From a virus (Duplodnaviria; Caudoviricetes): 64,000 nt of DNA. Both the position numbers and the translations under genes were made by a program. The number at the start of each line of letters is the position of its first letter. The first letter of the stretch is position 1. The notes under the pieces were generated by a model. That model searched no databases. It worked only from the letters and a program-made list of their open reading frames with translations, and was not told the DNA's origin. The stretch is taken from IMG/VR virus record IMGVR_UViG_3300045747_000276, positions 161 through 64,160 of that record. The stretch is one strand, 5' to 3'. Shown piece after piece: positions 40,477 through 61,592 of the stretch.

Positions 40477-40664
40477 AGGAAAAGTTCAGCAAACATACAC
40501 TTTACGTAAATACTAATACTAATGTATGGAGATTCTCGAAGGAGATGACAGATCGGAAAGACGGTATGCCGATAGGAAAGACTATTGCTAATTGATAAAA
40601 GTAGTCAATGACTCTGTGACAAAGACACAGTAATAGTGGTAATCCACAATACTTTTCCTGTTAA
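40477..40664 (+). ncRNA. TCAGCAA-box structured RNA, copy 1
   Basis: aggaaaagt-TCAGCAA...acttttcct-GTTAA; several internal hairpins. Confidence 0.7.
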
Positions 40665-40669
40665 AATTT

Positions 40670-40906
40670 TGGATAATTTCAGCAATTATTAAACGACAAA
40701 TGCTGTTGACGGTGCCTTGTTTGGGGTGATGTGTAGTTATGTTAGAAATAACACACCAATGGAACAGATATGCGATGTAACAGAAAACACATCGGGTGAA
40801 GAGACCTTACATCTTATAGCTCATAAGCGAAAGTTATGATATTGCGTGGAGGGTTTCAGGTAACACGCGTGAATAAATTGAAACAAGACCTCAGATATCC
40901 AGTTAA
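40670..40906 (+). ncRNA. TCAGCAA-box structured RNA, copy 2
   Basis: tggata..TCAGCAA...tatcca-GTTAA; multi-stem interior. Confidence 0.65.
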
Positions 40907-40915
40907 TCGAATAGT

Positions 40916-41045
40916 AGGATAGATTCAGCAACTAATTAAAAGTACTAAGACGGCATATCGAAGCGGACTGATAATCTCCGTGGATATATGCCAAACAAGT
41001 TTTTGACAGTCACTTGTAAAATAAACTACCAAAGCTATCCTGATA
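40916..41045 (+). ncRNA. TCAGCAA-box structured RNA, copy 3
   Basis: aggatag.t-TCAGCAA...ctatcct-GATA. Confidence 0.65.
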
Positions 41046-41111
41046 CTATTTAAATACAACAGACTTTAATTTACGCTCTTAGTCTGTGAGCGGTAATAAG
41101 TAGGAGACGAC

Positions 41112-41873
41112 ATGATGTATAATCAAAAATTTATAGCGACAGTTAAAACAGACGGTAAAGTTCTTAGGGAGTTTAAGGACACAATTTACATACCGTACGG
41201 CAGCGAATATTCTGTATACCTAATGAACATGAATAGTGTTCGAGCAAAAGTCAAGGTATCAATTGATGGTGAGGATGTACTAAATGGTGATGATTTAGTA
41301 ATTGCACCAAACACTTCAATTGAACTAGAGCGGTTTATGGAGACTATGGACAAAGGTCACAAGTTCAAATTCATTGAACGATCATCTGAAATAGAATCGC
41401 ACAGGGGTCTCAGGGCAGAAGATGGTTTGTTGAGGGTAGAATATACCTTTGAGAAAGTATCCGCTCCAATTGTTAATAATTACCCACCCTTTAATTACCC
41501 ACCAGGTGTTCGCGCATTCGGTGTCAATGATTGGGGTAAACCGGTGCTTATGGCACAAACATACGATAGTTATTCACCTAGCAATAGTAGTTTGTTTGTA
41601 TCTGCTTCTGCAAAATCTTTCAGTTCATCAAGTGTGGGTATAACTACTAAAGGTAGTATTTCAACTCAGCAATTTCAGAAAGTTTCAGATTTTACAACCG
41701 ATGGCGTGTCTCATGTTATGGTACTACACCTTCAAGGTGAAAATCAAGGTAAACCGGTAGTCACCCCAATTGATGTTAAGAGGGTACAGAAGTGTGATTG
41801 TTGCGGCAAGGTAAATCCAGTCTCAGCAAAGTTCTGCAATTCGTGTGGAACATCATTAGAAGTGTTAGTGTAA
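41112..41873 (+). CDS. Hypothetical protein (beta-rich N-terminus, C-terminal Zn ribbon)
   Basis: RBS aggag; 'CDCCG...FCNSCG'. Confidence 0.75.
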   Translation: MMYNQKFIATVKTDGKVLREFKDTIYIPYGSEYSVYLMNMNSVRAKVKVSIDGEDVLNGDDLVIAPNTSIELERFMETMDKGHKFKFIERSSEIESHRGLRAEDGLLRVEYTFEKVSAPIVNNYPPFNYPPGVRAFGVNDWGKPVLMAQTYDSYSPSNSSLFVSASAKSFSSSSVGITTKGSISTQQFQKVSDFTTDGVSHVMVLHLQGENQGKPVVTPIDVKRVQKCDCCGKVNPVSAKFCNSCGTSLEVLV

Positions 41874-41962
41874 ATATTTTTAAAATATTTTGATATTTTT
41901 CAGAATTTTGAATATTTCAGGCATATATATTATATAGAAAACAAATTCCAACAGGAAACCAA

Positions 41963-42085
41963 ATGACAAGACTTTTATGTAACATGCAAAAAACAACCCA
42001 GGGTGCAACACGCCCTGAGTGGCATGCTGCAGTACCATTTTATGGTAATGATTCTATTAGTGGGTTGGGGAGTGGGTCTTGTTGA
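41963..42085 (+). CDS. Putative leader peptide (40 aa; not in the ORF track)
   Basis: RBS agga; MTRLLCNMQKTTQGATRPEWHAAVPFYGNDSISGLGSGSC; its end overlaps the antiterminator strand. Confidence 0.6.
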   Translation: MTRLLCNMQKTTQGATRPEWHAAVPFYGNDSISGLGSGSC

Positions 42086-42152
42086 AGGTGTAAAAAGAAG
42101 AAGAAAGAACAAGACCCAACAAGTAGCAATATTTGTTGGGTTTTGTCATTTT
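42073..42152 (+). terminator. Attenuator-like terminator/antiterminator
   Basis: 42073-42083 tgggtcttgtt pairs with 42108-42118 aacaagaccca, which alternatively pairs in the 15-bp stem 42109-42123/42132-42146. Confidence 0.65.
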
Positions 42153-42251
42153 AGTGGTTCAAATCAATGGGTTATGAAAGTGCTTGCAATTTAAGTTGAA
42201 GTCTGTCATAATTGATTTTGTTGTGTTGATTGAAGATGTAAAAATCATCGG

Positions 42252-42280
42252 TTGACATTAAAGATTTTGTATTATACAAT
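42252..42280 (+). promoter_or_regulatory. Sigma70-type promoter ahead of the RNA cluster
   Basis: TTGACA-17-TACAAT. Confidence 0.7.
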
Positions 42281-42309
42281 AAGGTTTGAATAAAAGGTTT
42301 ATATTATGT

Positions 42310-42610
42310 TTCAGCGAAATATGGGTTTGTAGGAAACAAGAGCCCGACAAGAAGTTTCCCCTTATGAGACGCCTCCGGTTTCATATTGAAAGAAGTTAAT
42401 CACACCGTCAGGTGAATGGTAAAATTGTTTGACAAACAACAGTGAGGTGTGGGGATGCAACGAGAGCTGGAAACCACAAGAAAAAGATCAATAGTCGTCC
42501 TGATATTCAGAAATGAATATCGTGATGCTCAAAAAGCATTATCCGGAAAAGCCATCACCAGGATGGATTAAAGGAGGATTTAAAATGAGCCTTGATGCAA
42601 TGTCAGGGCA
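42310..42610 (+). ncRNA. Unidentified multi-hairpin RNA (about 300 nt)
   Basis: No credible ORF; successive hairpins such as gatattca-GAAA-tgaatatc, tatgagac/gtttcata, gccttga/tcagggc. Confidence 0.45.
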
Positions 42611-42711
42611 CATTTTGAAGTGTTTTATTTCATTGCTGAAATTTGATCAGTTAGACAGGGTGCATCAAATAACCTATGTCGTGAATGATAGAATATTTCA
42701 AAATGTAAATT

Positions 42712-42797
42712 GGACGTGTAGGAAAATTGGTAACCCCAGAAGACTGTAAATCTTCCGCCTCACGGCATTGTTGGTTCGACCCCAACCGCGTCCACCA
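42712..42797 (+). tRNA. tRNA-Tyr(GTA)
   Basis: gaaga-CTGTAAA-tcttc; long variable arm; ACCA. Confidence 0.9.
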
Positions 42798-42803
42798 AAC
42801 AAT

Positions 42804-42878
42804 GTCGCATTAGACTTCTAGTGAGGTCATCAGCCTTTCACGCTGACCAGACGGGGGCAGAACCCGTATGCGACTCCA
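42804..42878 (+). tRNA. tRNA-Glu(TTC)
   Basis: tcagc-CTTTCAC-gctga; atypical T-loop GGCAGAA; TCCA. Confidence 0.85.
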
Positions 42879-42889
42879 GACAAATTAAT

Positions 42890-42958
42890 GGGCTTACCGA
42901 ATGGGTCGGGAAAGACACTTGCAATGTCATGCTTGCGGATCGTTACCGCATAGGTCCA
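42890..42958 (+). tRNA. tRNA-Ala(TGC)
   Basis: gaca-CTTGCAA-tgtc; G3.U70 pair; no encoded CCA. Confidence 0.7.
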
Positions 42959-42999
42959 CACAGAGTGAATTTTGCATAAATACATGTAAGGAGGACAAG

Positions 43000-43582
43000 A
43001 TGTTCTATTATTTGTATGAGATAACCAATAAGGTTAATGACAAAATTTACGTAGGGGTGCATAAGACATCAGATTTGAATGATGGTTTATATGGGCTCTG
43101 GAAAGATAATTCAGCATGCAATTGCAAAGCATGGTGTACTGAATTTTTCTAAAGTCATACTAGAGCATTTTGATACATCAGATGCTATGTATGCAAGAGA
43201 AGCAGAATTGGTGAATGCCGAATTCTTAGAAAGAGATGACGTGTATAACCTCCGTAGAGGAGGACATGGCGGGTTTGATTACATTAACAAATATTGTGGT
43301 AATCAGGGTATCCGGATGAATTCACACATGTCTAATGAGACCAGACGCAAGGGTGCATTTAAAATGATTGAAATATGTAAACGTGACGGATTGGGTGTTT
43401 ACTCAGATTCCAGAATAAACATATTTAAAGATAAATCATTCCAAGATGAAATGACAAATAGGGCCAGAATTCATAATATGGGTTCTAAATGGGTCACTAA
43501 TGGTATAGAGAATAGAAAAATAAAGAAAGATGTTTTGATACCTGATGGGTGGAAATTAGGTAGAGTCATTAAGCCGCTGTAG
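43000..43582 (+). pseudogene. Frameshifted GIY-YIG homing endonuclease
   Basis: MFYYLYEITN..YVGVH..DG then YMGSG in another frame (one extra T near 43087); CATAAATA at 42975. Confidence 0.8.
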
Positions 43583-43647
43583 TCCTCGGGGAGGGCAGTT
43601 GATTGTCTATCAATATCAGGTGGGTTCGAGTCCCATCAGCGGCGCCA
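43573..43647 (+). tRNA. tRNA-Asp(GTC)
   Basis: gttga-TTGTCTA-tcaat; GCCA. Confidence 0.85.
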
Positions 43648-43652
43648 ATATT

Positions 43653-43735
43653 AGGATGAATTCAGCAACCAATTAAAATCTGTCTGTGGTTTTCGATTTT
43701 CCACTTAAATAAAAAGTAGGTATTCATCCTGTTAA
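43653..43735 (+). ncRNA. TCAGCAA-box structured RNA, copy 4
   Basis: aggatgaat-TCAGCAA...attcatcct-GTTAA (perfect 9-bp stem). Confidence 0.7.
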
Positions 43736-43860
43736 AATCAATCGGAGTAATTGACCGAAAAGTAAATGTTGATCATCTTGGCTATTTGGGTGATCCATGC
43801 AGTGTTACACAGCTATGAAAAGACGGGGTAAGAATCCTCACGTAAAGTATGCAGAAATAT

Positions 43861-43939
43861 TGACCGTAAGTCGACAAGGTGTTAGGCGCCTCGCTGTTAA
43901 CGAGGAATAAGTTAGGTTCGATTCCTAAACGGTCAGCCA
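43861..43939 (+). tRNA. tRNA-Asn(GTT)
   Basis: cctcg-CTGTTAA-cgagg; GCCA. Confidence 0.88.
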
Positions 43940-43944
43940 ATTAT

Positions 43945-44038
43945 TTCCCAGTTTACCTCACATCGCGCGAGAGGCAATGGAGTCACATATTTTATATGTG
44001 TGCGGACAACATGAGTTCAATTCTCATCTGGGAAGCCA
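43945..44038 (+). ncRNA. Atypical tRNA-like RNA (TTT at anticodon position)
   Basis: Acceptor ttcccag/ctgggaa-GCCA; T-arm atgag-TTCAATT-ctcat; enlarged D region. Confidence 0.65.
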
Positions 44039-44133
44039 ATTTTGTAGTTACAAGGTTATCTGCACCACAATGTTAAGCAGATCTACAAATTATAGTGTAT
44101 TATAGTCAATTATAGTATATTTTAATTTGTATT

Positions 44134-44207
44134 GCCCGGTTAATTAAAAAGTATAATATTCGCCTGATAAGCGAAATTCAGAGGAGCGTTACCTCTACTG
44201 GGTACCA
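44134..44207 (+). tRNA. tRNA-Ile(GAT)
   Basis: ttcgc-CTGATAA-gcgaa; T-loop AGCGTTA; ACCA. Confidence 0.82.
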
Positions 44208-44215
44208 ACGATAAT

Positions 44216-44290
44216 ATCCCCATAGTTCAATGTATAGAATAGAAGTTTCCTAAACTTTAGGTCAGGGTTAGATTCCCTGTGGGGGTTCCA
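44216..44290 (+). tRNA. tRNA-Arg(CCT)
   Basis: gaagt-TTCCTAA-acttt; TCCA. Confidence 0.82.
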
Positions 44291-44295
44291 AATAA

Positions 44296-44355
44296 AGAAT
44301 GCGTTCAGCAAACAAAAAAATTCAACTTTTAATTGAAAAATAAGCATTCTGTTAA
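44296..44355 (+). ncRNA. TCAGCAA-box structured RNA, copy 5 (carries a Lys-UUU anticodon stem-loop mimic)
   Basis: agaatgc.t-TCAGCAA...ttcaa-CTTTTAA-ttgaa...gcattct-GTTAA. Confidence 0.72.
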
Positions 44356-44359
44356 TTTT

Positions 44360-44433
44360 CTCGGTGTGGTGAAATGGTATCACTCTTGGTTTGGGACCAA
44401 GGAGCGAAGGTTCGATTCCTTCTACCGAGACCA
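44360..44433 (+). tRNA. tRNA-Pro(TGG)
   Basis: cttgg-TTTGGGA-ccaag; ACCA. Confidence 0.9.
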
Positions 44434-44560
44434 GTTATGGACGAAAGACGCGAAAGCGGTTTAGTATGTCCACCAAGTTTTGTAGTTTGATCGGTCAGAT
44501 CATGTTAAAGGCGATGCGCATCTTAATGATAATATGTGCAGCCTACTACAGGTTGATTAT

Positions 44561-44631
44561 TGCGGGGATTCAGGGTATCGGCAAGTCTCATAAGCTCGGC
44601 CTAGGTGTTTCGAGTACACCCTCCGCTTCCA
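44561..44631 (+). tRNA. Degenerate initiator-like tRNA-Met(CAT)
   Basis: 1:72 mismatch; CTCATAA loop; weak anticodon stem; TCCA. Confidence 0.6.
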
Positions 44632-44636
44632 ATAAT

Positions 44637-44710
44637 AGTGCATTAGGCTAAAAGAAAACCATGTGTCTCATAAGCACAATTCGATGGAGCGTTACCATCA
44701 TGCACTACCA
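44637..44710 (+). tRNA. tRNA with CAT anticodon (Met or Ile2)
   Basis: tgtgt-CTCATAA-gcaca; ACCA. Confidence 0.82.
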
Positions 44711-44716
44711 AACAAT

Positions 44717-44803
44717 GCGAGTTGTGGTGGAACGGTATACACTCCAGACTTAAAATCTGGCGCCCGTAAGGGATTGAGGGTTCAAGTCCCTCCACTCGTA
44801 CCA
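44717..44803 (+). tRNA. tRNA-Leu(TAA)
   Basis: ccaga-CTTAAAA-tctgg; long variable arm; ACCA. Confidence 0.88.
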
Positions 44804-44809
44804 AATTGT

Positions 44810-44886
44810 GCACCGTTCGTATAACGGCTTATTATACATGGCTCTTAACCATGGAGATCTGGGTTCAAATCCCAGGCGGTGCACCA
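44810..44886 (+). tRNA. tRNA-Lys(CTT)
   Basis: catgg-CTCTTAA-ccatg; ACCA. Confidence 0.9.
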
Positions 44887-44892
44887 AACAAT

Positions 44893-44967
44893 GGCTCGAT
44901 CATATAATGGTCATTATCGCGGATTGTCTATCCGTAGATCGCAGTTCGATTCTGCGTCGGGTCGCCA
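44893..44967 (+). tRNA. tRNA-Asp(GTC)
   Basis: gcgga-TTGTCTA-tccgt; GCCA. Confidence 0.88.
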
Positions 44968-44974
44968 ATATTAT

Positions 44975-45050
44975 TCTTCGATAGCTCAGTTGGTAGAGCC
45001 TTTGACTGTTAATCAAAATGTCCGTGGTTCGAGCCCACGTCGAGGAGCCA
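44975..45050 (+). tRNA. tRNA-Asn(GTT)
   Basis: tttga-CTGTTAA-tcaaa; GCCA. Confidence 0.92.
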
Positions 45051-45076
45051 GAATAACAATAAAAGCAAGAAATTAT

Positions 45077-45150
45077 GCGGGTATGGTATATGGTTTGTGC
45101 CCTAGCCTTCCAAGCTATAGAATCCGGTTAGAGTCCGGATACCCGCTCCA
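45077..45150 (+). tRNA. tRNA-Gly(TCC)
   Basis: tagc-CTTCCAA-gcta; TCCA. Confidence 0.85.
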
Positions 45151-45156
45151 AACAAT

Positions 45157-45231
45157 GCATCCAGAGCCAGTCAGCACAGGCACTCGTCTGCAAAACGAGG
45201 TAATAGAGGGCAGCACTCTATGGGTGTTCCA
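45157..45231 (+). tRNA. tRNA-Cys(GCA)
   Basis: ctcgt-CTGCAAA-acgag; T-loop GGCAGCA; TCCA. Confidence 0.8.
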
Positions 45232-45245
45232 GATAGGTAAATGAT

Positions 45246-45585: not shown

Positions 45586-45590
45586 AATAT

Positions 45591-45676: not shown

Positions 45677-45682
45677 AATAAT

Positions 45683-45756: not shown

Positions 45757-45763
45757 GTGATAA

Positions 45764-45840: not shown

Positions 45841-45844
45841 ATAT

Positions 45845-45908: not shown

Positions 45909-46577
45909 ATGTTATATTACTTATATGAAATTAGGAATAATATCAATGGCAAAATTTACATTGGTGTTCATAAGTCTAATGATATAGATGATGGTTATAT
46001 GGGATCGGGTGCTCTCATCCAATTAGCTATAAAGAAGTATGGGATTGAAAATTTTACCAAGACTATATTAGAATATTTTGATGATTCCAAATCAATGTTC
46101 TTAAAGGAATATGAGATTGTCGATATTGAGTTTGTATCTCGCAGAGATACATATAATTTGGCGATTGGAGGATGTGGTGGATCTATGTTACAAAACAGAA
46201 GATCATTTTCAGGAAAGCATTCTGATCAATCGAGGAAAAAAATTTCAGATAGCAGTAAAGGAAGAATAGTTGCAGATGCAGCAAAAATAAATATGTCTAG
46301 GCATCATTGGGTAAAGTTGGACCCAGTTGCTCAGAAGGAACACTCCATATATGCTGCCAGAAAATCTGTTGAATCTAGGAAGATGAATAACAATATCTCA
46401 TACAACAAGGTTTCGTGTTCATTGTTGGAACGAAATAAAGAAAATAGAGATTGTGGTATTCCTCATCACAATAGTGGGATTCCAAAGAAAAAGATTGAAT
46501 GTCCCATATGTAATAAGATGGTGGCTATTAACACTGCCAACAGATGGCACTTTGATAACTGTAAAATGAGAACTTAG
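45909..46577 (+). mobile_element. GIY-YIG (SegB-like) homing endonuclease with NUMOD3
   Basis: 'YLYEIRN...YIGVH...DGYMGSG', 'GKHSDQSRKKIS'; CATAAATA at 45884. Confidence 0.88.
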
Positions 46578-47160: not shown

Positions 47161-47225
47161 GGGAAAGTTCCGAAAGGACGCAGCCTGATAGGTTGATGAC
47201 AGCAAACAAAAATTCTTTCCCGCCA
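47161..47225 (+). ncRNA. T-armless tRNA-like RNA carrying the CAGCAAAC box
   Basis: gggaaag/ctttccc-GCCA; tcc-GAAA-gga; cagc-CTGATAG-gttg; CAGCAAACAAAAA. Confidence 0.6.
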
Positions 47226-47272
47226 ATTACATCCTCTCCCATCCTGATTTTTTGTAAGCAGGAAATTGATTG

Positions 47273-49929: not shown

Positions 49930-50270
49930 TGGTAGTAAACTGATCGTAAGAAACGATTGCAACACGGGAGTGCAACTCTCCTCACCTCCACCATAAGAAC
50001 TCTGAATCTTGCAGCAATGCATGATCAGGTTTGGTACTCCAGATCCCTCTTGCACGGTAACACCGATAACAAAGACAGATGCACCGAGAGTTCTTTTGAT
50101 GGGGGTGCCTTAGGATCGACTGCGAAAGAAGTACAATGCATTGGCTACTCGTCACAGATAGACGTAAAAAGTAAAACGCAATTAAATGCAAACGACGAAA
50201 GATTCGCTTTAGCCGCATAGGCCTAGCGTAAGGAGTTCGATGGGTTGTCCTTATAACAGACTCAACCCAT
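49930..50270 (+). ncRNA. ssrA: Circularly permuted (two-piece) tmRNA
   Basis: Acceptor piece ends cacctcc-ACCA at 49993; coding piece begins GGGGGTG at 50101 (G3.U70); tag ANDERFALAA* at 50188-50220. Confidence 0.92.
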
Positions 50271-53430: not shown

Positions 53431-53886
53431 ATGAAAGTACTGTATATCATTCGGGGATTGCCAGGTTCTGGTAAATCTACCCTTGCTAAAAATATGAGGC
53501 AAGATGGATTTTATGGACTCCCAAAATATTTCGAGGCAGATATGTTTTTCACTGGCCCCGATGGAGCATATAAATTTGACGCATCGAAGTTATCGGAAGC
53601 CCATCAAAAATGCAAATTATGTACTGAGGCAGAGATGCTTCTGGGTAAGAATGTTACGGTATCAAATACATTCACTAAGTACTGGGAAATGGCAGTATAT
53701 TTTGAAATGGCGACCAGATACGGATATGCAATAAAAATTATCCACTGTAAGAAGCGATATAATAATATCCATGGGGTATCAAACGAAATTATTGATATGA
53801 TGGAATTGAGGATGGAATCAGATAATTTTATTGCAGAACAGTGTGCGAATAAAGGTTTAACTGTTGAAATTTCAGAAATAATTTAA
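53431..53886 (+). CDS. P-loop (AAA_33) kinase, polynucleotide-kinase-like
   Basis: 'IRGLPGSGKSTLA', 'EAD.FF', 'VSNTFT', 'NIHGV'. Confidence 0.82.
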   Translation: MKVLYIIRGLPGSGKSTLAKNMRQDGFYGLPKYFEADMFFTGPDGAYKFDASKLSEAHQKCKLCTEAEMLLGKNVTVSNTFTKYWEMAVYFEMATRYGYAIKIIHCKKRYNNIHGVSNEIIDMMELRMESDNFIAEQCANKGLTVEISEII

Positions 53887-54200
53887 ATAGGAGTTTATAT
53901 GTTCACTTTGATGTTTTGCCTGGTGCTCATACTTTTGCTTGCAGCTCGCGATAATAATAACTGGCCGTTCCCATGAAAATGAACAATATGGTTAGTGTGC
54001 TAATGCACCGCGAAGATATGACCTATGATGAGGTCGCATCATGGATTAAATCTGCGACTGATGATATGACAGATCCTGAGGAACTACTTCTTGATGAATT
54101 TGGGCTCGAACCAGATTACATCTGGGATCTGCTAGAATTTGTGTGATTGACATTTAAGTTCCCATCACTCATAATTGAAATATGATGAAGGATGCATTAA

Positions 54201-54434
54201 ATGAAATTGTTTTTAGAAACAACGGTTTGGGATAACAACATCCCAAACCACACTTACATATTAGAAGACGACAAATCTCGTATGCATGGGTATATTCAAA
54301 TGGGGCACAAAGAACCGTTTATGTTTAAAAAACCTATAGGGTTCAGTGCAAGTAAGAGAACATTTAAAATGCTTGGTGAATATACAGATGTGGTTCCCAG
54401 GAAGCCATGGCCATTTGCAAAGGTAACAGAATGA
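54201..54434 (+). CDS. Hypothetical protein
   Basis: 'ETT.W....PNHTY' pattern; follows the promoter at 54147-54175. Confidence 0.65.
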   Translation: MKLFLETTVWDNNIPNHTYILEDDKSRMHGYIQMGHKEPFMFKKPIGFSASKRTFKMLGEYTDVVPRKPWPFAKVTE

Positions 54435-54973
54435 GTAAAATATTTTTCACAAGCGACACGCATTTTTTCCACAGGAACATTTTGAAGTTTTGCCCTAACA
54501 CTAGGCGAGGTTCCAACGAAATAGATATGACTAATCATATAGTGCATGATTGGAATTCTAAGGTATCAGCAAACGATTTGGTTTATCATCTTGGCGACGT
54601 ATCTTTTGGTGATGAGGAAAAGACTAAATCTGTATTGTGGAGGCTTAACGGAAAAATCATCCTAGTTAAGGGAAATCACGACAAAGTTGTAACTAATGGT
54701 GATTGTTCGGCTAGATTCGAGTCTATTACAGACTATGCCAGAATTTCTATTGACGGGCATGAAGTTATGATGTTTCACTTCCCTATTTGGGAATGGGATA
54801 AAATGCACCGAGGGTCTTTTCACCTATATGGCCATGTACACGGTAATAGTTCTGTGCCTGGTAGGGCAATGGATGTTGGTGTTGATATGAGACCAGGCGT
54901 CGATATGTCACCATGGTCATGGGATGAGATTAAGAAAAAAATATCACCTATTGAAATTCGGAGTCATCACTAG
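54431..54973 (+). CDS. Calcineurin-like phosphoesterase
   Basis: 'FTSDTHF.H', 'HLGD', 'GNHD', 'GHVH', 'DVGVD'. Confidence 0.88.
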   Translation: MSKIFFTSDTHFFHRNILKFCPNTRRGSNEIDMTNHIVHDWNSKVSANDLVYHLGDVSFGDEEKTKSVLWRLNGKIILVKGNHDKVVTNGDCSARFESITDYARISIDGHEVMMFHFPIWEWDKMHRGSFHLYGHVHGNSSVPGRAMDVGVDMRPGVDMSPWSWDEIKKKISPIEIRSHH

Positions 54974-56786: not shown

Positions 56787-57274
56787 TGGAAAAATGTTTT
56801 GATGGTTGGGCCCGAGACAATGGAAATATTTCAGGTAGGTGTTGCTGCAACTGTAAATATCAGAGGCCTATTGTGGGGCACCCATGGAATAAAAGAATGG
56901 GTAGTCCCATACAGGGCCCAATGGATATAGTTATAGGGTTTGGGTGCAACATACCAGATGCACCCAATACAGTTTTTTTTGAATTTAAGCACGGAATGTG
57001 TGAAAACCATGATTGGGATAGAGATGAAGAAAAATAGCGAATTTAATGTTTTTAGAAAGTTGTTTGCTGTCGCAACTGACAATTGTTCTATAGAGGGTGT
57101 GAATAGTGCTTATTCGTGGGAAGATGAATATGCTAAGCTCATAGCAAAAGAAATAATCACTAGGATCGAAGATTCCGCTGTGGGTGATTATGGTGCAGGT
57201 GAATGGGACAGGGGGTATGATACAGGATTAGCGCAAGCCACTGCAGTCATACGTCTTATGATCAAGGAAATGCT

Positions 57275-57550
57275 ATGAAATTGAGGATGGGGTTTGTTTC
57301 AAACTCATCTAGCAGCTCTTTTATTGTTGCTAAGGCATATCTTAAGCCATGGCAGATTGATGCACTCATCGAGGTGTGCAAAGAGTCTATGGGCCCCTGG
57401 GACGATTCTTGGGGTGTAGAAGTTGATGATTACAATGTAAGGGGATTTACTTATATGAATAATAATCGTGATGAAGAAGGTGGTCTGGAATCTTGGATGA
57501 TTAAAAACAAGTTTCCTATGAAAGCAATTGTTTGGGAGAATGATGAATGA
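57275..57550 (+). CDS. GFVSNSSSSSF-motif protein 1
   Basis: N-terminus MKLRMGFVSNSSSSSF. Confidence 0.8.
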   Translation: MKLRMGFVSNSSSSSFIVAKAYLKPWQIDALIEVCKESMGPWDDSWGVEVDDYNVRGFTYMNNNRDEEGGLESWMIKNKFPMKAIVWENDE

Positions 57551-57852
57551 AGATTAGACAAGGTTTTGTATCGAACAGTTCAAGTTCGTCTTTTGTGTGT
57601 TGTATCTCTGGTGTGTCATTTGAAGGGTATGACGGAGAATATGATTGTACCTACGCTCAGTGTGCGGCAGGACATGAATTTGAAGCAGATGACTTTCCAG
57701 AAGTATTGGCATATTTGAAAGAAGATGGTGATAACTACGAAGTTCCTAAGGACATCTGCCCTGTATGTAATGGTAAGGCTAAGACTCTTATCGTAACTAG
57801 GTTGAAAAAGGAACTGAAACATTTGGGTATTGATATTGGGGATTTGGTATGA
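57547..57852 (+). CDS. GFVSNSSSSSF-motif protein 2
   Basis: N-terminus MKIRQGFVSNSSSSSF; Cys-rich body. Confidence 0.8.
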   Translation: MKIRQGFVSNSSSSSFVCCISGVSFEGYDGEYDCTYAQCAAGHEFEADDFPEVLAYLKEDGDNYEVPKDICPVCNGKAKTLIVTRLKKELKHLGIDIGDLV

Positions 57853-58334
57853 AAGTTAGATCTGGGTTTGTTAGTAACAGTAGTTCAAGTTCATTTATAA
57901 TCGCAGTTCCTGCTGATATGAATCTTGGGTTTGATGAGTTGCACAATGCAGTTTTTGGTAGTGATAAAATTCAATACTTTGGTCCTGAATACCCAGGGAT
58001 GTCCCGCGTCTCTGTGGATTCTTGTCAGATCATTAGTAGTATGTTGAATAGAATCAAGAAGGTTGATGATTTGTCTGATTTGATTGAAGCAGCATACGAT
58101 CAACCCAACATGGACGATTACAGAATGGAAGACGGAAAGTACGACTGGGATGCATATGATGAAGTTCGCAAAGTAGAAAATAGTAAAGAGGCAGCAAAGT
58201 TATCATCTAAGTTTCCAAAACATGATTTCTACAGCGTAGAATATAGTGATAATGATGGAGAATTTGAATGTGAGGTTGAGCATGGCGCCGCACTAAGGTA
58301 CCAGGAGAATATTGTAAGAGTGAGTCACCATTAA
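57849..58334 (+). CDS. GFVSNSSSSSF-motif protein 3
   Basis: N-terminus MKVRSGFVSNSSSSSF; acidic body. Confidence 0.8.
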   Translation: MKVRSGFVSNSSSSSFIIAVPADMNLGFDELHNAVFGSDKIQYFGPEYPGMSRVSVDSCQIISSMLNRIKKVDDLSDLIEAAYDQPNMDDYRMEDGKYDWDAYDEVRKVENSKEAAKLSSKFPKHDFYSVEYSDNDGEFECEVEHGAALRYQENIVRVSHH

Positions 58335-58342
58335 GGAACTAA

Positions 58343-59005
58343 ATGAAATTAGCTATAGCATCCATTTTATTAACTGCATCATTGAGTGCAGTTTCAGGCA
58401 ATTGTGATAAATTTTACCCAGGTGGTAAAGAGTTTATTGTGCCATCCACAGTAGAATTATGTAACTCTTTCTACGTCACCAGGTTTGATAATACACATAA
58501 CAGAAATGTAATGTCTATTGACCTAGTTAAAGCATCCCGACCCAGGGTCCAGCGTGAAGATAATTTCAGGGCTGATTCTAGGGTGACTAGACCAGCGAAC
58601 CCGAGCGATTATACCCGATCTGGGTATGACAAAGGGCACATGGTTCCTGCAGCAGATGCGAATACTCCTCAAGATATGAGTGATACGTTTTTATTGACTA
58701 ATATGACGCCACAGGTACCGTCATTAAATAGGGGAGCATGGCGTGAACTTGAGGAATCAATTAGGAATAATGCATGGACAACTCGTAGGGACACGTACGT
58801 TATAACCGGTGCACTTTACAAGTCCATCATCACCGCTACAATTGGCAAAAACAAAGTTCCGGTTCCTACTGGGTATTACAAGATTGTATATTTGCCATTA
58901 GGTGTAAAGGCATATTATGCTGATAATACACCAACAGGTACAGTTAAACCAGTGCCAGTCAGTGAAATAGAAAATAAATCAGGATTGGTTTTCCCTAAAT
59001 TATGA
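58343..59005 (+). CDS. Secreted DNA/RNA non-specific endonuclease (NucA-like)
   Basis: Signal peptide; 'DKGHM', 'NMTPQ...NRG.W..LE'. Confidence 0.9.
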   Translation: MKLAIASILLTASLSAVSGNCDKFYPGGKEFIVPSTVELCNSFYVTRFDNTHNRNVMSIDLVKASRPRVQREDNFRADSRVTRPANPSDYTRSGYDKGHMVPAADANTPQDMSDTFLLTNMTPQVPSLNRGAWRELEESIRNNAWTTRRDTYVITGALYKSIITATIGKNKVPVPTGYYKIVYLPLGVKAYYADNTPTGTVKPVPVSEIENKSGLVFPKL

Positions 59006-59724
59006 TTAAGCCACATGAGGTATTCACAAACTCCTTTGTTATTCTACTGGAATCTATGGGGTTTGTGTTTGATAGAAAAATAAAGAGAAACCTTAAGGAT
59101 GAACAGTTGTGCTTGTCCTACGATAGTAAAATCAACCCCATAAACATAATTGACGAGTCCCTAGTCAAAATGGGGATAAAGTCAGACAGGTCAGCGATTG
59201 ACACATATTCGGGTCAATGGTTGATCTGGGGAAAGAAGCCAAGCGGGCTGTGGCTCATCATCATAGACACCCAAAAACGCACTTTGACGTTATTTTTCAG
59301 TGTTGTTCCGTTGCACTATTGACATTTAAGTTTAGATGCATCATAATTCATTCATGTGTTTGAAACAATCAATTTGGAGAATGTAATTTATGATACGACA
59401 GATCGCCCCAAATATCCGGATTTCATATCAAGGAGATCCCAGGATTGTTGCTTACGATGTTTGTGTAGAGAAGTTGGATTCTGACGAATGGACAATGGTG
59501 CGTGGGTTCAATAGCATGTCTGATGACTATGCTTGCATAAATGCAAATGAATTCGCATACGCCATGATTGAACGCGACCGGTTGACGGTTAAGTTGCATT
59601 AGTGTATAATTAATTCAATTATGAAATTTAACAAGTTTGATCAATCAACGGTTGACAAATAAGGCAAATAAAATCATAATTGTTTTATTGATGTTTTTGA
59701 AACAACCCTTAAAGGAAATTTATT

Positions 59725-60054
59725 ATGACAGTTATCAACACCCAAATCAAGCGCAAACAAGAACTCGTTGCAGCATTGCAAGCAGAGATTCGTGGGTTGC
59801 GTGAACAGCGCAACATTGTTTGGAATGGCAAAATTGATGCCAACAAGGCCAAAAAGGCCGAGCGTGAACAAAAGGCAGCTCTCCGAGCACAAACAAAAGC
59901 AGTTAAAGATGAAACAAAAGCGATCAAGGCAGCATCTCTTGCAAAAGCCAAAGCAGATCGTGTAATGAAACTTGAACTTAAACTTGCATCATTGAAAGCA
60001 AAGCGCGAACCAATGACAAAAGAAGACCTCCGTAAATCCGGCGGCATGGTTTAA
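59725..60054 (+). CDS. Lys/Ala-rich coiled-coil protein
   Basis: RBS aagga; follows the promoter at 59652-59680. Confidence 0.7.
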   Translation: MTVINTQIKRKQELVAALQAEIRGLREQRNIVWNGKIDANKAKKAEREQKAALRAQTKAVKDETKAIKAASLAKAKADRVMKLELKLASLKAKREPMTKEDLRKSGGMV

Positions 60055-60067
60055 TTTGCAGGGAGTG

Positions 60068-60096
60068 TTGACAATAAATCGACACTCCCTTACAAT
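60068..60096 (+). promoter_or_regulatory. Sigma70-type promoter for the DUF2828 gene, overlapping a GC hairpin
   Basis: TTGACA-17-TACAAT inside gggagtgttg/cgacactccc. Confidence 0.7.
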
Positions 60097-60121
60097 AATC
60101 AAACATTGAAAAATGTAATTT

Positions 60122-60177
60122 AGTTTGGGTTCAGCAACCTATATCAATCATACTGAAACCAAAGTCCAAACTGTTAA
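60122..60177 (+). promoter_or_regulatory. TCAGCAA-box element, copy 6, in the 5' UTR next to the RBS
   Basis: agtttgg-gt-TCAGCAA...ccaaact-GTTAA-aaggaatttaaATG. Confidence 0.72.
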
Positions 60178-60188
60178 AAGGAATTTAA

Positions 60189-61592
60189 ATGAACGCATTT
60201 GTTAACGCTATCGGTACTCCAAATAAGACTGTAACTACCAATGGAATGGTAGCATTCGATAAGACAGGCTCCAAGTTGGTAGATATGTTCTTCAACATTG
60301 GTGCAGCTCGCAACAACCCAAATATTGTTCCTCAATTCATGCAAGCATTTGCAGAGGACAAACTGTTGGCCACAAAGATGTTATTCTGGGCCCGTGATGT
60401 TCGAGGTGGAGCAGGTGAACGTAAGGTTTTCCGTGATATTTTGTCAAAGCTGGCAGTAACTAACCCAGATTTAGTGAAGAAGAATTTGCCGCTTGTGGCA
60501 AAGTATGGTCGTTGGGATGACCTCCTTATCCTTAAGGGTGATGTATTGCAATCTGCATATCGCCTAATTGGTACTGCCATTAAATCAGGCAATGGTCTGT
60601 GCGGTAAGTGGATGCCCCGCAAGGGCCCAGAGGCTGCAGCACTTCGGTCAGCACTTGGGATGTCACCAAAACAATACAGAAAGACCCTTGTCGGTTTAAC
60701 GTCGGTTGTTGAGACCCAAATGTGTGCTAAGACATGGGATAACATTGAGTTCGGTCATGTGCCTTCAATTGCAGCAGCACGGTATCAAAAAGCATTCGCA
60801 AAGAACGCTGAGGTGAAGTATAAAGAATATCGAGACGCTCTAGTTACTGGTGAAGCAAAGATCAACGCATCTAGCATTTTCCCTCACGATGTTATCAAGA
60901 GCCTGCAGTCGGGTCTGGTAGATGTTGCAACAGCACAATGGAATGCATTACCTAATTATCTAGGTGACCAAAAGGTGTTGGCACTGGTTGACGTGTCAGG
61001 TTCTATGTCCTGCCCAGCAGGAAAGAATAGTAACACAACATGTCTAGATGTGTCATTGTCCCTTGGTTTGTATGTGTCGGACAAATTGACTGGTGCTTTC
61101 AAGGATACATTCTTGACATTTAGTGCATCACCACAATTGTTGACCCTTAAAGGTTCTATTGCAGAAAAGTTAGGACAATTGGAGTCATCTGATGATTGGG
61201 AAATGAATACTAATATTGAATTGGCGTTTGATGCAATTCTTAAGACGGCAGTAAAGGCAAATGCTCCCCAAGAGGATATGCCAGATGTTCTGTTGATTAT
61301 GTCAGATATGCAATTTGATCAATGTGCAGATTGGGGCGACACCATGCAAACTATGATGCAACGCAAGTATGAAAATGCGGGGTATAAGGTGCCTACAATT
61401 GTGTTCTGGAATCTCAATGGTTCACACGGAAATGTGCCTGGCACATCCGTTGATAAGGGAGTTATGATGGTTTCTGGGTTCTCCCCAGCAATCCTTAAGG
61501 CAGTTCTTGCCTGTGATCTGACCAATGTCACACCATACAGTATGATGTTGGAGGTCCTAAACGGTGATCGTTACGCAAACGTAACCGTATAA
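60189..61592 (+). CDS. DUF2828-family helical plus vWA protein (putative Ro60/TROVE-like RNA-binding protein)
   Basis: 'RDVRGGAGER', 'YGRWDDL', 'KWMPR', MIDAS 'DVSGSM', 'SDMQFD', 'FWNL', 'SGFS'. Confidence 0.82.
   Translation: MNAFVNAIGTPNKTVTTNGMVAFDKTGSKLVDMFFNIGAARNNPNIVPQFMQAFAEDKLLATKMLFWARDVRGGAGERKVFRDILSKLAVTNPDLVKKNLPLVAKYGRWDDLLILKGDVLQSAYRLIGTAIKSGNGLCGKWMPRKGPEAAALRSALGMSPKQYRKTLVGLTSVVETQMCAKTWDNIEFGHVPSIAAARYQKAFAKNAEVKYKEYRDALVTGEAKINASSIFPHDVIKSLQSGLVDVATAQWNALPNYLGDQKVLALVDVSGSMSCPAGKNSNTTCLDVSLSLGLYVSDKLTGAFKDTFLTFSASPQLLTLKGSIAEKLGQLESSDDWEMNTNIELAFDAILKTAVKANAPQEDMPDVLLIMSDMQFDQCADWGDTMQTMMQRKYENAGYKVPTIVFWNLNGSHGNVPGTSVDKGVMMVSGFSPAILKAVLACDLTNVTPYSMMLEVLNGDRYANVTV

What the first reader, a model, noticed from the sequence alone, without database searches (positions are those of the whole stretch)
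40477..61592. Candidate new RNP system: a TCAGCAA-box ncRNA family plus a DUF2828/vWA protein whose own leader carries the same element
Seen in sequence: six elements at 40477-40664, 40670-40906, 40916-41045, 43653-43735, 44296-44355 and 60122-60177 share one grammar. Each has a 6-9 bp closing stem whose sequence differs between copies but always pairs (aggaaaagt/acttttcct, tggata/tatcca, aggatag/ctatcct, aggatgaat/attcatcct, agaatgc/gcattct, agtttgg/ccaaact). An invariant TTCAGCAA follows the 5' strand, and GTTAA (GATA in copy 3) follows the 3' strand. Interiors are unrelated, about 30-210 nt. Five copies are free-standing in or near the tRNA cluster. The sixth lies between the promoter and the RBS of the DUF2828 gene. 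Established: Ro60/Rsr (helical ring plus vWA) binds Y RNAs through a conserved terminal stem while the rest varies, and is linked to RNA repair. Inference: this helical+vWA protein binds the box, uses the RNAs as Y-RNA-like modular adaptors or decoys, and autoregulates its translation through copy 6.
Basis: partly seen in the sequence, partly recalled or inferred. Interest (0 to 1): 0.95.

Follow-up and report, generated by a model that had tools for sequence, protein, structure and literature searches.

The report
Small RNAs partnering a Ro-like protein
A family of small structured RNAs with one fixed "handle" sits beside a Ro60-like protein gene in hundreds of phages and probably forms a Y-RNA-like particle with that protein; the handle closely resembles that of an unexplained RNA class of social amoebae.

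Summary
The six elements are real and not chance. Each has 9 nt (usually AGGNNNNNN) whose first 6-9 nt pair with a distant 3' strand, then UCAGCAA, then a variable interior, then ...CCU followed by GUUAA.

The same grammar lies beside DUF2828/DUF7788 (vWA) genes, on the gene's strand:
- 64 of 80 related IMG/VR loci.
- 51 of 80 bacterial or archaeal genome contigs.
- Felix O1, Bas63, KVP40, S13, Listeria P100, a mycobacteriophage, Campylobacter CP8, Enterococcus EFDG1 and a cyanophage.

T4, T5 and Bas51 lack the gene and lack the RNA. The 5' half alone predicts the complementary 3' strand in 99 of 106 sites, against about 7 in shuffles.

Some interiors mimic tRNA T/D arms (sub-threshold YrlA hits) or anticodon arms. 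The protein's vWA half is homologous to that of TROVE/Ro60 proteins. Its Bas63 orthologue, gp130, is a published counter-defence protein described as Ro60-like.

Best reading: a Y-RNA-like RNP with a new handle, (A/U)CAGCAA instead of GNCGAA. Binding and autoregulation remain untested.

The handle also matches Dictyostelium Class I RNAs (RF01414, below the gathering score). I found no Dictyostelid DUF2828 protein among the rows I could examine.

The parts
40477..40664 (+). Copy 1. Stem AGGAAAAGU/ACUUUUCCU (9 bp), UCAGCAA box, about 158-nt interior, tail GUUAA.
   Evidence: Terminal stem is in the MFE fold. Missed by model R1 because of the long insert.
40670..40906 (+). Copy 2. Stem UGGAUA/UAUCCA (6 bp), box, about 210-nt interior, tail GUUAA.
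40916..41045 (+). Copy 3. Stem AGGAUAG/CUAUCCU (7 bp), box, variant tail GAUA.
   Evidence: R1 scores 26.0 bits and the copy was not in the seed.
43653..43735 (+). Copy 4. Starts 6 nt after tRNA-Asp. 9-bp stem, box, interior with a weak T-arm-like hairpin, tail GUUAA.
   Evidence: R1 scores 32.1 bits and the copy was not in the seed.
44296..44355 (+). Copy 5. Lies between tRNA-Arg and tRNA-Pro. 7-bp stem, box, anticodon-arm-like hairpin (uucaa CUUUUAA uugaa), tail GUUAA.
   Evidence: Matches RF01414 Dicty_Class_I_RNA at 35.4 bits, gathering score 41.5, model positions 1-56 of 56. R1 scores 53.8 bits; this copy is in the seed.
47190..47248 (+). Possible degenerate seventh copy, between tRNA-Val and tRNA-Ile. 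AGGUUGAUG ACAGCAA ... CAUCCU GA; the stem needs a bulge.
   Evidence: R1 scores 17.4 bits, E 0.16. Sequence read. Weak.
60068..60096 (+). Sigma-70-like promoter site TTGACA-17-TACAAT upstream of copy 6.
   Evidence: 11 of 12 positions. Across the region such sites are no more frequent than in shuffles, so this is a consensus match only.
60122..60177 (+). Copy 6, in the leader of the DUF2828 gene. 7-bp stem (9 bp with two G-U pairs), box, tail GUUAA running straight into AAGGA (60178-60182) and the ATG at 60189.
   Evidence: R1 scores 35.8 bits; this copy is in the seed. Homologous placement recurs in related contigs.
60189..61592 (+). DUF2828/DUF7788 protein, 467 aa. Helical N-terminal part plus a vWA domain with the MIDAS motif DVSGSM (residues 268-273).
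   Evidence: Pfam PF25043 6.8e-45 and PF11443 4.3e-28. PHROG 850 'RNA-binding protein' 5.8e-143. hhalign to TROVE proteins gives 95.4% probability over residues 225-439.
61599..61628 (+). G+C-rich hairpin (GGGGUGG...CCACCCC) followed by AAUUUAAUU, just after the stop codon. Terminator-like.
   Evidence: Read by eye. It lies outside the range scanned.

Best explanation
The elements are genes for small non-coding RNAs that share one 'handle'. The 5' and 3' ends pair in a 6-9 bp stem (consensus AGGAU.../...AUCCU). The 5' strand is followed, after 2 nt, by a single-stranded (A/U/G)CAGCAA box. The 3' strand is followed by GU(U).

Between the two halves sits an exchangeable module of about 30-250 nt. 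In a substantial minority this module mimics part of a tRNA: T and D arms as in YrlA, or an anticodon arm.

The RNAs are made by processing of tRNA-cluster transcripts, or from the leader of the DUF2828 mRNA.

Inference: the DUF2828/vWA protein, a distant relative of Ro60, binds the handle much as Ro60 binds the conserved 5'-proximal motif and terminal stem of Y RNAs. The modules then tether or decoy tRNA-recognising host factors such as nucleases and repair or modification enzymes. Where a copy abuts the Shine-Dalgarno sequence of the protein's own mRNA, binding there would also throttle its translation.

Shown: the RNA grammar, its structure signal, and its genomic coupling to the gene. Inferred: binding, the adaptor or decoy role, and autoregulation.
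For: (1) The grammar is real.
- In the window, 6 of 6 + strand boxes have the stem and tail; none of the 4 stem hits that the same scan found on the - strand has the tail.

(2) Protein to RNA.
- In 80 IMG/VR loci chosen only by DUF2828 homology (519 kb), the strict grammar finds 133 elements in 64 loci on the gene strand.
- It finds 12 elements in 11 loci on the other strand, and 0-10 in each of 20 shuffles.
- 60 of 75 loci with more than 300 nt of upstream sequence have an element ending within 600 nt upstream of the start codon. None lies inside the CDS.
- In 80 bacterial or archaeal genome-contig loci (504 kb): 90 elements in 51 loci on the gene strand, against 6 on the other.

(3) Breadth.
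- Tandem copies lie beside the gene in Felix O1, Bas63, KVP40, S13, P100, Clautastrophe, CP8, EFDG1 and BUCT-ZZ01.

(4) Genome-wide specificity.
- Model R1 was run over five complete DUF2828-positive genomes (667 kb). All 11 hits of 27 bits or more lie next to the gene or its tRNA cluster, on its strand. One is a KVP40 hit that was not in the seed.
- T4, T5 and Bas51 lack the gene. Their best hits are 19.1 bits or less.

(5) RNA to protein, and a non-circular test of the stem.
- The 5' half alone (TTTAGGATNNNTWCAGCAA) hits 106 sites in 80 IMG/VR loci.
- 99 of the 106 have a partner strand of at least 6 bp followed by G. Shuffles give 7.1 (maximum 12), and a displaced window gives 3 of 91.
- DUF2828 is on 50 of the 80 contigs. 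In the 34 where the gene lies in the stored locus, the motif is always on the gene's strand.
- The three complete genomes without the gene had only stemless matches, which are chance matches.

(6) Ro60 likeness.
- The best PDB hit of the family profile is the TROVE protein of phage phiLo, at a marginal E of 0.07.
- hhalign against TROVE proteins gives 95.4% (E 1.9e-8, 191 columns) for the phage forms and 96.5% (E 9.4e-10, 250 columns) for the eukaryotic forms.
- UniRef names a Sphagnum member 'TROVE domain-containing protein'.
- Passages of PMC11482910 state that Bas63 gp130 is structurally similar to Ro60. bas63_0130 is the orthologue, E 8.4e-92.

(7) Y-RNA-like modules.
- Sub-threshold YrlA hits lie inside or next to the elements: 40.9, 44.9, 39.3 and 34.2 bits.
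- A T-loop motif occurs in 19 of 111 unique elements.
- Anticodon-arm-like hairpins occur in 31 of 118 short elements, against 4.7 in shuffles (maximum 12 of 200).

(8) Context.
- RNA repair or tRNA genes lie nearby: RtcB in P100, an RNA ligase in GAP32, and CCA-adding enzymes in S13 and GAP32.
Against: - No binding or expression data exist for any of these RNAs. No RNA run was listed for the window.
- The N-terminal two thirds of the protein shows no sequence-level match to the TROVE ring.
- The Ro60-binding motif of bacterial Y RNAs, GNCGAA, is absent: 1 of 257 unique elements has it.
- According to passages of PMC11482910, gp130 alone, from a plasmid or inserted into T7, restores plaquing on the ppl defence strain. 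At least that activity therefore needs none of the phage's own RNAs.
- GAP32 has the gene, but no convincing element was seen within +/-4 kb.
- The covariation counts come from rows that were selected for pairing, so they are partly circular.
Confidence: 0.7

Rival explanations
1. Translational operator first. The handle is the protein's autoregulatory binding site in its own leader, and the free-standing copies merely titrate the protein. It does not exclude the best explanation.
For: In the window's clade the last element ends 15-36 nt before the ATG, and the Shine-Dalgarno sequence follows the GU tail directly. 34 of 75 loci have an element within 100 nt upstream. CP8 and BUCT-ZZ01 show the same arrangement, at 21-22 nt.
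Against: In Felix O1, Bas63, S13 and Clautastrophe all copies lie downstream of the gene. In KVP40 they lie kilobases away. tRNA-like modules are not needed for an operator. Compact co-transcription would also place an RNA gene right before the Shine-Dalgarno sequence.
Confidence: 0.3
2. The RNAs work on their own, or with a host partner. They would be tRNA-fragment decoys or processing scaffolds. DUF2828 would merely be co-inherited in the same tRNA/RNA-repair gene neighbourhood.
For: The elements sit in tRNA clusters. Their modules mimic T, D or anticodon arms. gp130 acts without them against ppl (passages).
Against: tRNA-cluster phages without DUF2828 (T4, T5, Bas51) lack the RNA. The linkage holds in phages of Actinobacteria, Firmicutes, Proteobacteria, Campylobacterota and cyanobacteria, and in loci with only 0-1 tRNA genes detected in the locus, namely L125, L118 and L115. 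A conserved handle with swappable modules implies one common reader of that handle.
Confidence: 0.15
3. Pure processing or punctuation signals. The stems would be RNase sites that cut polycistronic tRNA transcripts, leaving no stable RNA product.
For: The flanks are U-rich. The elements are packed head to tail about 10 nt apart, like tRNAs.
Against: A single-stranded box invariant across phyla, together with conserved termini, is more than a cleavage hairpin needs. The closest look-alikes, Dictyostelium Class I RNAs, are abundant stable RNAs (PMC7919456, passages). The tRNA-like modules are conserved.
Confidence: 0.08
4. DNA-level repeats: a miniature mobile element or recombination sites.
For: Inverted repeats flank variable inserts. 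Homing endonuclease genes lie nearby.
Against: Orientation relative to the gene is strict: 133 against 12, and 90 against 6. G-U pairs are tolerated on the sense strand only. The arm sequences differ between copies within one genome. No target-site duplications were seen.
Confidence: 0.02

Closest known systems
Ro60 (Rsr)-Y RNA particles, especially bacterial YrlA (Rfam RF02553; Chen et al. 2014, PMC4201824, abstract and passages read)
   Same: - An RNA gene or genes lie next to the gene of a protein with a vWA/MIDAS domain.
- The 5' and 3' ends pair.
- A short conserved motif near the 5' end is the presumed protein site.
- The rest is modular and often tRNA-like, with the T arm before the D arm.
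- The neighbourhood holds RNA repair genes such as RtcB.
   Different: - The protein is DUF2828/DUF7788, not Pfam TROVE. Only the vWA half, plus about 60 residues before it in the eukaryotic forms, aligns.
- The handle is (A/U/G)CAGCAA after a 7-bp AGGAU stem, instead of GNCGAA(N)G.
- No element reaches the YrlA gathering score.
- Many copies are only 45-65 nt long and have no tRNA-like part.
phiRo60 with Yrl1/Yrl2 of Thermus phage phiLo (PMC12135203, passages read; PDB 9KOP and 9L5Y)
   Same: A phage-encoded Ro-type protein with two small RNA genes directly upstream. Binding and a PNPase complex have been shown there. It is the best PDB match of the DUF2828 profile.
   Different: phiRo60 is a canonical TROVE ring, and its RNAs use the CGAA motif. 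The match to DUF2828 is marginal (E 0.07) and confined to the MIDAS region.
Dictyostelid Class I RNAs (Rfam RF01414; Kjellin et al. 2021, PMC7919456 and its preprint, passages and one section read)
   Same: - They start with (A)AG.
- A short terminal stem keeps its structure but not its sequence.
- A conserved unpaired motif, CCUUACAGCAA, directly follows the 5' strand.
- The interior is variable.
- They end in CUGU.
- They are 42-65 nt long.
- Window copy 5 aligns end to end with the model at 35.4 bits. 113 of 257 unique phage or bacterial elements end in CUGU, and 149 carry ACAGCAA.
   Different: - All hits are below the gathering score: 35.4, 34.2 and 29.6 bits against 41.5. None appeared in six further loci.
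- The spacer is one nucleotide shorter.
- There is no DUSE promoter.
- The known direct binder in Dictyostelium is the RRM protein Rnp1A/CIBP.
- I found no Dictyostelid DUF2828 protein among the rows I could examine.
Bas63 gp130, a Felixounavirus protein (PhageMaP preprint, PMC11482910, passages read)
   Same: It belongs to the same protein family: bas63_0130 matches the window protein at E 8.4e-92. It lies directly upstream of the tRNA stretch. The authors call it structurally similar to Ro60 and suggest that some 'tRNAs' may be Y RNAs.
   Different: The RNAs were not identified there. Here four CAGCAA-box elements are located between the Bas63 tRNAs, two of them under small opposite-strand CDS annotations. 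The published phenotype, countering the ppl defence, did not need them.

Membership tests
Ro60/TROVE protein family | Match to the TROVE (HEAT-like ring) domain, Pfam PF05731 | tested here: not met
   No TROVE hit even at E up to 10. A six-frame search of the whole record with PF05731 found nothing. hhalign covers only residues 225-439.
Ro60/TROVE protein family | C-terminal vWA domain with a MIDAS motif (DxSxS), homologous to that of Ro60 | tested here: met
   DVSGSM at residues 268-273 is invariant in 26 homologues. hhalign against 7 TROVE proteins gives 95.4%, E 1.9e-8. Eukaryotic DUF2828 proteins against TROVE give 96.5%, E 9.4e-10.
Ro60/TROVE protein family | Closed ring structure with a central cavity | not testable with these tools
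The Atlas holds a model (pTM 0.85) but listed only DUF2828 neighbours. PMC11482910 asserts structural similarity for gp130; its supplementary figure was not seen.
Ro60/TROVE protein family | Binds Y RNA | not testable with these tools
   Only genomic linkage is shown here.
YrlA / bacterial Y RNA (RF02553) | Score at or above the Rfam gathering score of 69 bits | tested here: not met
   The best scores are 44.9, 40.9, 39.3 and 34.2 bits, all in related loci. None was found in the window.
YrlA / bacterial Y RNA (RF02553) | tRNA-like T and D arms in the middle | tested here: met
   Met in a subset only. L060:1692-1754 aligns to model positions 24-84. T-loop motifs occur in 19 of 111 and 33 of 257 unique elements. 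They were not detected in the six window copies.
YrlA / bacterial Y RNA (RF02553) | GNCGAA(N)G motif near the 5' end (Chen et al. 2014) | tested here: not met
   G.CGAA occurs in the first 35 nt of 1 of 257 unique elements. The CAGCAA box takes its place.
Dictyostelid Class I RNA (RF01414) | Score at or above the Rfam gathering score of 41.5 bits | tested here: not met
   The scores are 35.4 (window copy 5), 34.2 and 29.6 bits. There was no hit at E up to 5 in six further loci.
Dictyostelid Class I RNA (RF01414) | Terminal stem of about 6 bp joining the 5' and 3' ends, conserved in structure but not in sequence | tested here: met
Dictyostelid Class I RNA (RF01414) | The 11-nt motif right after the 5' strand, with T3, C6, C9, A10 and A11 near-invariant (PMC7919456) | tested here: met
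   In the cmscan alignment, GUU-CAGCAA lies against CUUACAGCAA. All five positions match, with a 1-nt deletion. CAGCAA is invariant in the A2 alignment, but only by selection.
Dictyostelid Class I RNA (RF01414) | Conserved ends: AAG at the start and CUGU at the end | tested here: met
   The window copies start AGG, AGA, AGU or UGG. Four of the six end CUGU; copy 2 ends CAGU and copy 3 CUGA. Across 257 unique elements, 148 start AG, 40 start AA and 113 end CUGU.
Dictyostelid Class I RNA (RF01414) | DUSE promoter about 60 nt upstream; found only in Dictyostelia | tested here: not met
   The sources are a phage and bacteria. The window copies lie within tRNA-type arrays or behind a sigma-70-like site.

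The most novel reading that the evidence does not exclude
The phage and bacterial CAGCAA-box RNAs and the 'Dictyostelia-specific' Class I RNAs are one ancient RNA class. They are the Y-RNA-like partners of DUF2828/vWA proteins, a Ro60 sister family found in phages, giant viruses, bacteria and many eukaryotes. The handle recruits the protein, and the exchangeable module (tRNA arm mimics in phages) selects the target. This would give Class I RNAs a candidate protein partner and mechanism. It would also explain the counter-defence activity of Bas63 gp130 as RNA-guided interference with tRNA-directed or nucleic-acid-directed host immunity.
Probability: 0.25. Interest if true: 0.95.

Novelty: new variant of a known kind. 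Interest (0 to 1): 0.85.

Why it matters
- DUF2828 homologues occur in 709 of 50,697 phage records. These include work-horse and applied phages: Felix O1 and 250 further records that carry its gene, KVP40, Listeria P100, Campylobacter and Enterococcus phages, and mycobacteriophages. Homologues also occur in plants, fungi, Naegleria and other eukaryotes.
- Here the protein gets a concrete, easily testable RNA partner family with a defined handle. No Rfam 15 family covers it, and none of my literature searches found it described.
- It extends the Ro60-Y RNA principle to a second protein family with a different recognition motif.
- It shows that the small 'gaps', over-long 'tRNAs' and tiny opposite-strand ORFs in phage tRNA clusters are RNA genes.
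- It links to a published counter-defence phenotype (gp130 against ppl).
- The resemblance to Dictyostelium Class I RNAs makes a twenty-year-old question, what those abundant RNAs do and whether they are truly lineage-specific, directly testable.

Tried and rejected
- Rfam at gathering thresholds over the whole window found only tRNAs and a permuted tmRNA. At E-value level nothing overlapped any element apart from RF01414 in the window and, in related loci, RF01414, YrlA and partial tRNA hits.
- Megablast of the region against named phages found no match, so the window's phage has no close named relative.
- phmmer of the protein against the PDB gave nothing meaningful.
- NCBIfam gave no family.
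- The search for homologous proteins with 'longer' on the full protein found none.
- The ESM Atlas listed only DUF2828 clusters.
- Expression: the look-up of sequencing runs listed no RNA holder.
- Dictyostelium link:
  - DDB_G0281243 is the uncharacterised protein from the DdR-21 pull-down (preprint 10.1101/2020.04.05.026054). It could not be looked up: it occurs in no other held paper.
  - Avesson et al. 2011 is not held.
  - No Dictyostelid row appears among the 119 long homologues.
  - None appears among the 10 of 150 representatives that I named. The other 140 were not named.
  - This is no evidence of absence.
- GAP32: the grammar hits there are 264-329 nt long and lie over coding sequence. 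I judged them chance. R1 was not run on GAP32.
- The DNA-repeat or mobile-element reading was rejected on strand bias and G-U pairs.
- The covariation table is partly circular, because its rows were chosen for pairing. Searches are the non-circular test.
- Supplements were closed. The following were not seen and may bear on novelty:
  - Chen et al. 2014 Table S2 (which phages had YrlA).
  - PhageMaP Supplementary Fig. 7E.
  - Kjellin et al. Tables S4 and S5.

Full report
**1.

The window is 64,000 of the 64,160 bases of an IMG/VR viral contig, estimated 36% complete. The phage is of T4 type: it has a gp59-like loader, 29-30 tRNA genes and a permuted tmRNA.

- All six elements are on the + strand at the stated coordinates, with the stated stems.
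- TTCAGCAA occurs 11 times, against 3.69 +/- 1.88 expected; 0 of 100 shuffles reach 11.
- The six + strand occurrences are the six elements. Each has a complementary 3' strand followed by GTTAA (GATA in copy 3). None of the four 6-bp stem hits that the same scan found on the - strand carries that tail.
- The geometry is fixed: the box starts exactly 9 nt after the first stem base.
- The terminal stem is in the minimum-energy fold of every copy.
- Copy 6 lies between a TTGACA-17-TACAAT site and the AAGGA/ATG of a 467-aa protein. That protein matches DUF7788 (6.8e-45), DUF2828 (4.3e-28) and PHROG 850 'RNA-binding protein'.

**2. The grammar travels with the gene (protein to RNA)**

*IMG/VR loci.* I fetched 80 IMG/VR loci solely by homology to the protein, at 45-54% identity.

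- A strict grammar was used: 9 nt, then [TA]CAGCA[ACT]; at least 6 bp counted from the first base; tail G[TG].
- It finds 133 elements in 64 of the 80 loci on the gene's strand, against 12 in 11 loci on the other strand.
- It finds 0-10 in each of 20 mononucleotide shuffles.
- With a slightly more tolerant G-U rule there are 144 elements. Of these, 111 end within 500 nt upstream of the start codon and none lies inside the 1.4-kb coding sequence.
- 60 of 75 loci with more than 300 nt of upstream sequence have an element within 600 nt. 34 have one within 100 nt. 16 loci have none.
- The consensus is UUUU|AGGAU-NNN-U-(U/A)CAGCAA ... A-rich ... AUCCU|GUU(A/G)U.

*Named phages.*
- Felix O1 has four copies among the tRNAs just downstream of the gene, and so does Bas63. 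The last copy carries T and D arms.
- KVP40 has two long copies in its tRNA cluster, plus a short one found by the model.
- S13 has copies just downstream, overlapping an over-long 'tRNA-Ser' and a 'tRNA-OTHER' annotation.
- Listeria P100 has three tandem copies directly upstream.
- Mycobacteriophage Clautastrophe has three directly downstream.
- Campylobacter CP8 has two, Enterococcus EFDG1 at least two, and Synechococcus phage BUCT-ZZ01 three.
- GAP32 showed none that I trust.

*Genome contigs.* An independent set of 80 bacterial or archaeal genome contigs with the gene gives 90 elements in 51 loci on the gene strand, against 6 on the other, at stem length of at least 7 bp.

**3. Specificity, and the reverse direction (RNA to protein)**

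*Covariance model.* I built model R1 from 51 short copies.

- It recovers window copies 3 and 4, which were not in its seed.
- Across five complete DUF2828-positive genomes (667 kb), all 11 hits of 27 bits or more lie beside the gene or its tRNA cluster, on its strand.
- T4, T5 and Bas51 have tRNA genes but no DUF2828. Their best scores are 19.1 bits or less.

*5' half alone.* I scanned IMG/VR with the 5' half only.

- It gives 106 sites in 80 loci.
- 99 of the 106 have a partner strand of at least 6 bp followed by G within 330 nt.
- Shuffling the downstream sequence gives 7.1 (maximum 12 in 50 runs). A displaced window gives 3 of 91.
- This is the non-circular evidence for the stem. The covariation table (97.6% of cells paired against 62.6% in shuffles; 118 double changes against 30.7) is partly circular, because its rows were selected for pairing.

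*Co-occurrence.*
- DUF2828 lies in the stored stretch of 34 of the 80 loci. In all 34 the motif is on the gene's strand.
- It lies elsewhere on the contig in 16 of the other 46.
- Most of the remaining 30 contigs are small fragments.
- The three complete genomes without the gene had only stemless, chance matches.

**4. What the RNAs look like inside**

Interiors range from about 20 to about 300 nt.

- In related loci, parts of the interiors match YrlA below threshold: 40.9 bits over the tRNA-like core, then 44.9, 39.3 and 34.2 bits. Others match partial tRNA models.
- A T-loop motif occurs in 19 of 111 unique elements.
- Among 118 unique short elements, 31 carry a hairpin with a 7-nt YU-NNN-R-N loop, like an anticodon arm. 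Shuffles give 4.7, with a maximum of 12 in 200. Window copy 5 has CUUUUAA.
- The YrlA protein-site motif GNCGAA is absent: 1 of 257.

The family therefore has the modular logic of Y RNAs but a different handle.

**5. The protein**

- Pfam TROVE does not match.
- The best PDB hit of the family profile is the TROVE protein of Thermus phage phiLo (9L5Y, 9KOP), at a marginal E of 0.07 over the MIDAS region.
- Profile-profile comparison with seven TROVE proteins that I extracted from Pseudomonadota genomes gives 95.4%, E 1.9e-8, over residues 225-439.
- Twelve eukaryotic DUF2828 proteins against the same TROVE set give 96.5%, E 9.4e-10, reaching about 60 residues upstream of the vWA domain.
- Homologues occur in 709 of 50,697 phage records. 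Some are annotated 'Ro-like RNA binding protein'.
- Long forms occur in plants, fungi, chrysophytes, Naegleria, a green alga, an aphelid and a mite. Mimivirus-like forms are mentioned in a passage of 10.1101/033464.
- bas63_0130 is the orthologue (E 8.4e-92) and lies directly upstream of the Bas63 tRNAs.

Passages of the PhageMaP preprint (PMC11482910) say that gp130:
- is structurally similar to Ro60;
- counters the ppl defence;
- does so even when expressed alone with T7.

The authors only guessed that some neighbouring 'tRNAs' might be Y RNAs.

**6. Mechanism**

*Shown:* a structured-RNA grammar, strand-specific and tightly coupled to one protein family across phyla.

*Inferred, about 0.7:*
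- The protein binds the handle, as Ro60 binds the 5'-proximal motif and stem of Y RNAs.
- The modules tether or decoy tRNA-recognising factors.
- Nearby RtcB, RNA ligase and CCA-adding enzyme genes recall the rsr-yrlA-rtcBA operon. That operon structure is recalled from memory. The Y RNA-Rsr-PNPase link is in PMC4201824.

*Autoregulation.* It is plausible in the window's clade. There the last copy ends 15-36 nt before the ATG and runs into the Shine-Dalgarno sequence. It cannot be general, because several phages place all copies downstream of the gene.

*Against a strict RNA requirement:* gp130 works alone against ppl.

**7. The Dictyostelium resemblance**

- Window copy 5 aligns end to end with RF01414 at 35.4 bits (gathering score 41.5; E 3.8e-4 in a 4-kb search). 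Two copies in other loci reach 34.2 and 29.6 bits. Six further loci gave none.
- By the published description (PMC7919456, passages), Class I RNAs have the following features:
  - They start AAG.
  - They have a 6-bp terminal stem of variable sequence.
  - An unpaired 11-nt motif, CCUUACAGCAA, follows directly.
  - The interior is variable.
  - They end in CUGU.
- The phage handle matches all of these, with a spacer 1 nt shorter.
- The authors concluded that the class is unique to Dictyostelia. Outside Dictyostelia they searched eukaryotic genomes and one bacterium (Myxococcus xanthus); the word 'virus' does not occur in the paper.
- I could not establish whether Dictyostelids have a DUF2828 protein, nor what DDB_G0281243 is. 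That is the uncharacterised protein in their DdR-21 pull-down.
- The unified-family reading stays open, at about 0.25.

**8. Novelty and verdict**

- Phage Ro60-Y RNA pairs are known: Chen et al. 2014, and phiLo phiRo60 with Yrl1/2.
- The Ro likeness of DUF2828 proteins is already in annotations.
- The RNA partner family, its handle, its breadth and its tRNA-arm modules appear new. No Rfam 15 family covers it, and no paper was found in searches for:
  - DUF2828;
  - YrlA + phage + Ro60;
  - Y RNAs + bacteriophage + Ro60 + von Willebrand;
  - Ro60 + phage + anti-defense + noncoding RNA;
  - PF11443, IPR011205 or UCP015417.
- Supplements were closed, so the phage list of Chen et al. was not seen.
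- I file it as a new variant of a known kind, with high interest.

Noticed in passing
window 49931-50220 (+): A permuted tmRNA (RF04321, 91.7 bits) sits inside the phage tRNA cluster. EFDG1 carries a standard tmRNA about 3.5 kb upstream of its DUF2828 gene (L095:65-415, 140.6 bits).
   Followed up: no
L092:2468-3019 (Listeria phage P100): A ROOL RNA match (86 bits, below the gathering score of 99.1) lies about 640 nt upstream of the three CAGCAA-box RNAs and the DUF2828 gene. An RtcB-type 'tRNA splicing ligase' lies 1.3 kb downstream.
   Followed up: no
window 42901-43582 (+): A GIY-YIG-like homing endonuclease reading frame inside the tRNA cluster appears split over two overlapping frames (42901-43152 and 43079-43582). 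The GIY-YIG assignment rests on my reading of the N-terminal sequence, not on a family search. A second gene at 45909-46577 gave GIY-YIG and SegE hits below Pfam's cut-offs.
   Followed up: partly
window 53431-54973 (+): An AAA_33 P-loop kinase (53431-53886) and a calcineurin-like phosphoesterase (54407-54973) lie close together, recalling a polynucleotide kinase/phosphatase repair pair. An HNH endonuclease, a radical SAM protein and a non-specific DNA/RNA endonuclease follow.
   Followed up: partly
L101:2949-3223 (Bas63, bas63_0137 and bas63_0138); L091:7896-8138 (S13): Two small opposite-strand CDSs in Bas63, and an over-long 'tRNA-Ser' (121 nt) and a 'tRNA-OTHER' (113 nt) in S13, overlap or adjoin CAGCAA-box elements. 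These are probably misannotations of the RNA genes.
   Followed up: partly
G284:C1:30205-32567 and G293:C1:114284-116784 (IMG/VR records behind L247 and L260): The DUF2828 gene is in two pieces about 1-1.1 kb apart, split at residue ~134-137. One record has an in-frame TGA. This suggests an intervening element (intron or endonuclease insertion) or a broken gene.
   Followed up: no
L125 (Dysosmobacter segnis isolate contig), L118 (Novimethylophilus kurashikiensis): Cultured bacteria carry DUF2828 with upstream CAGCAA-box elements. In L125 a tRNA-Ser lies next to them, and a class-V aminotransferase and a weak RNA-ligase-like ORF follow. I did not determine whether these are prophages.
   Followed up: partly
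L072, L073, L082, L060, L029 leaders: Some leader-proximal copies carry box variants UCCGCAA or ACCGCA(A/U) instead of CAGCAA. My grammar missed them, so the counts of elements are lower bounds.
   Followed up: no
window 41112-41873 (+): A 253-aa ORF directly after copies 1-3 has only weak C-terminal zinc-ribbon hits, below Pfam's cut-offs, and no PHROG family. Function unknown.
   Followed up: partly
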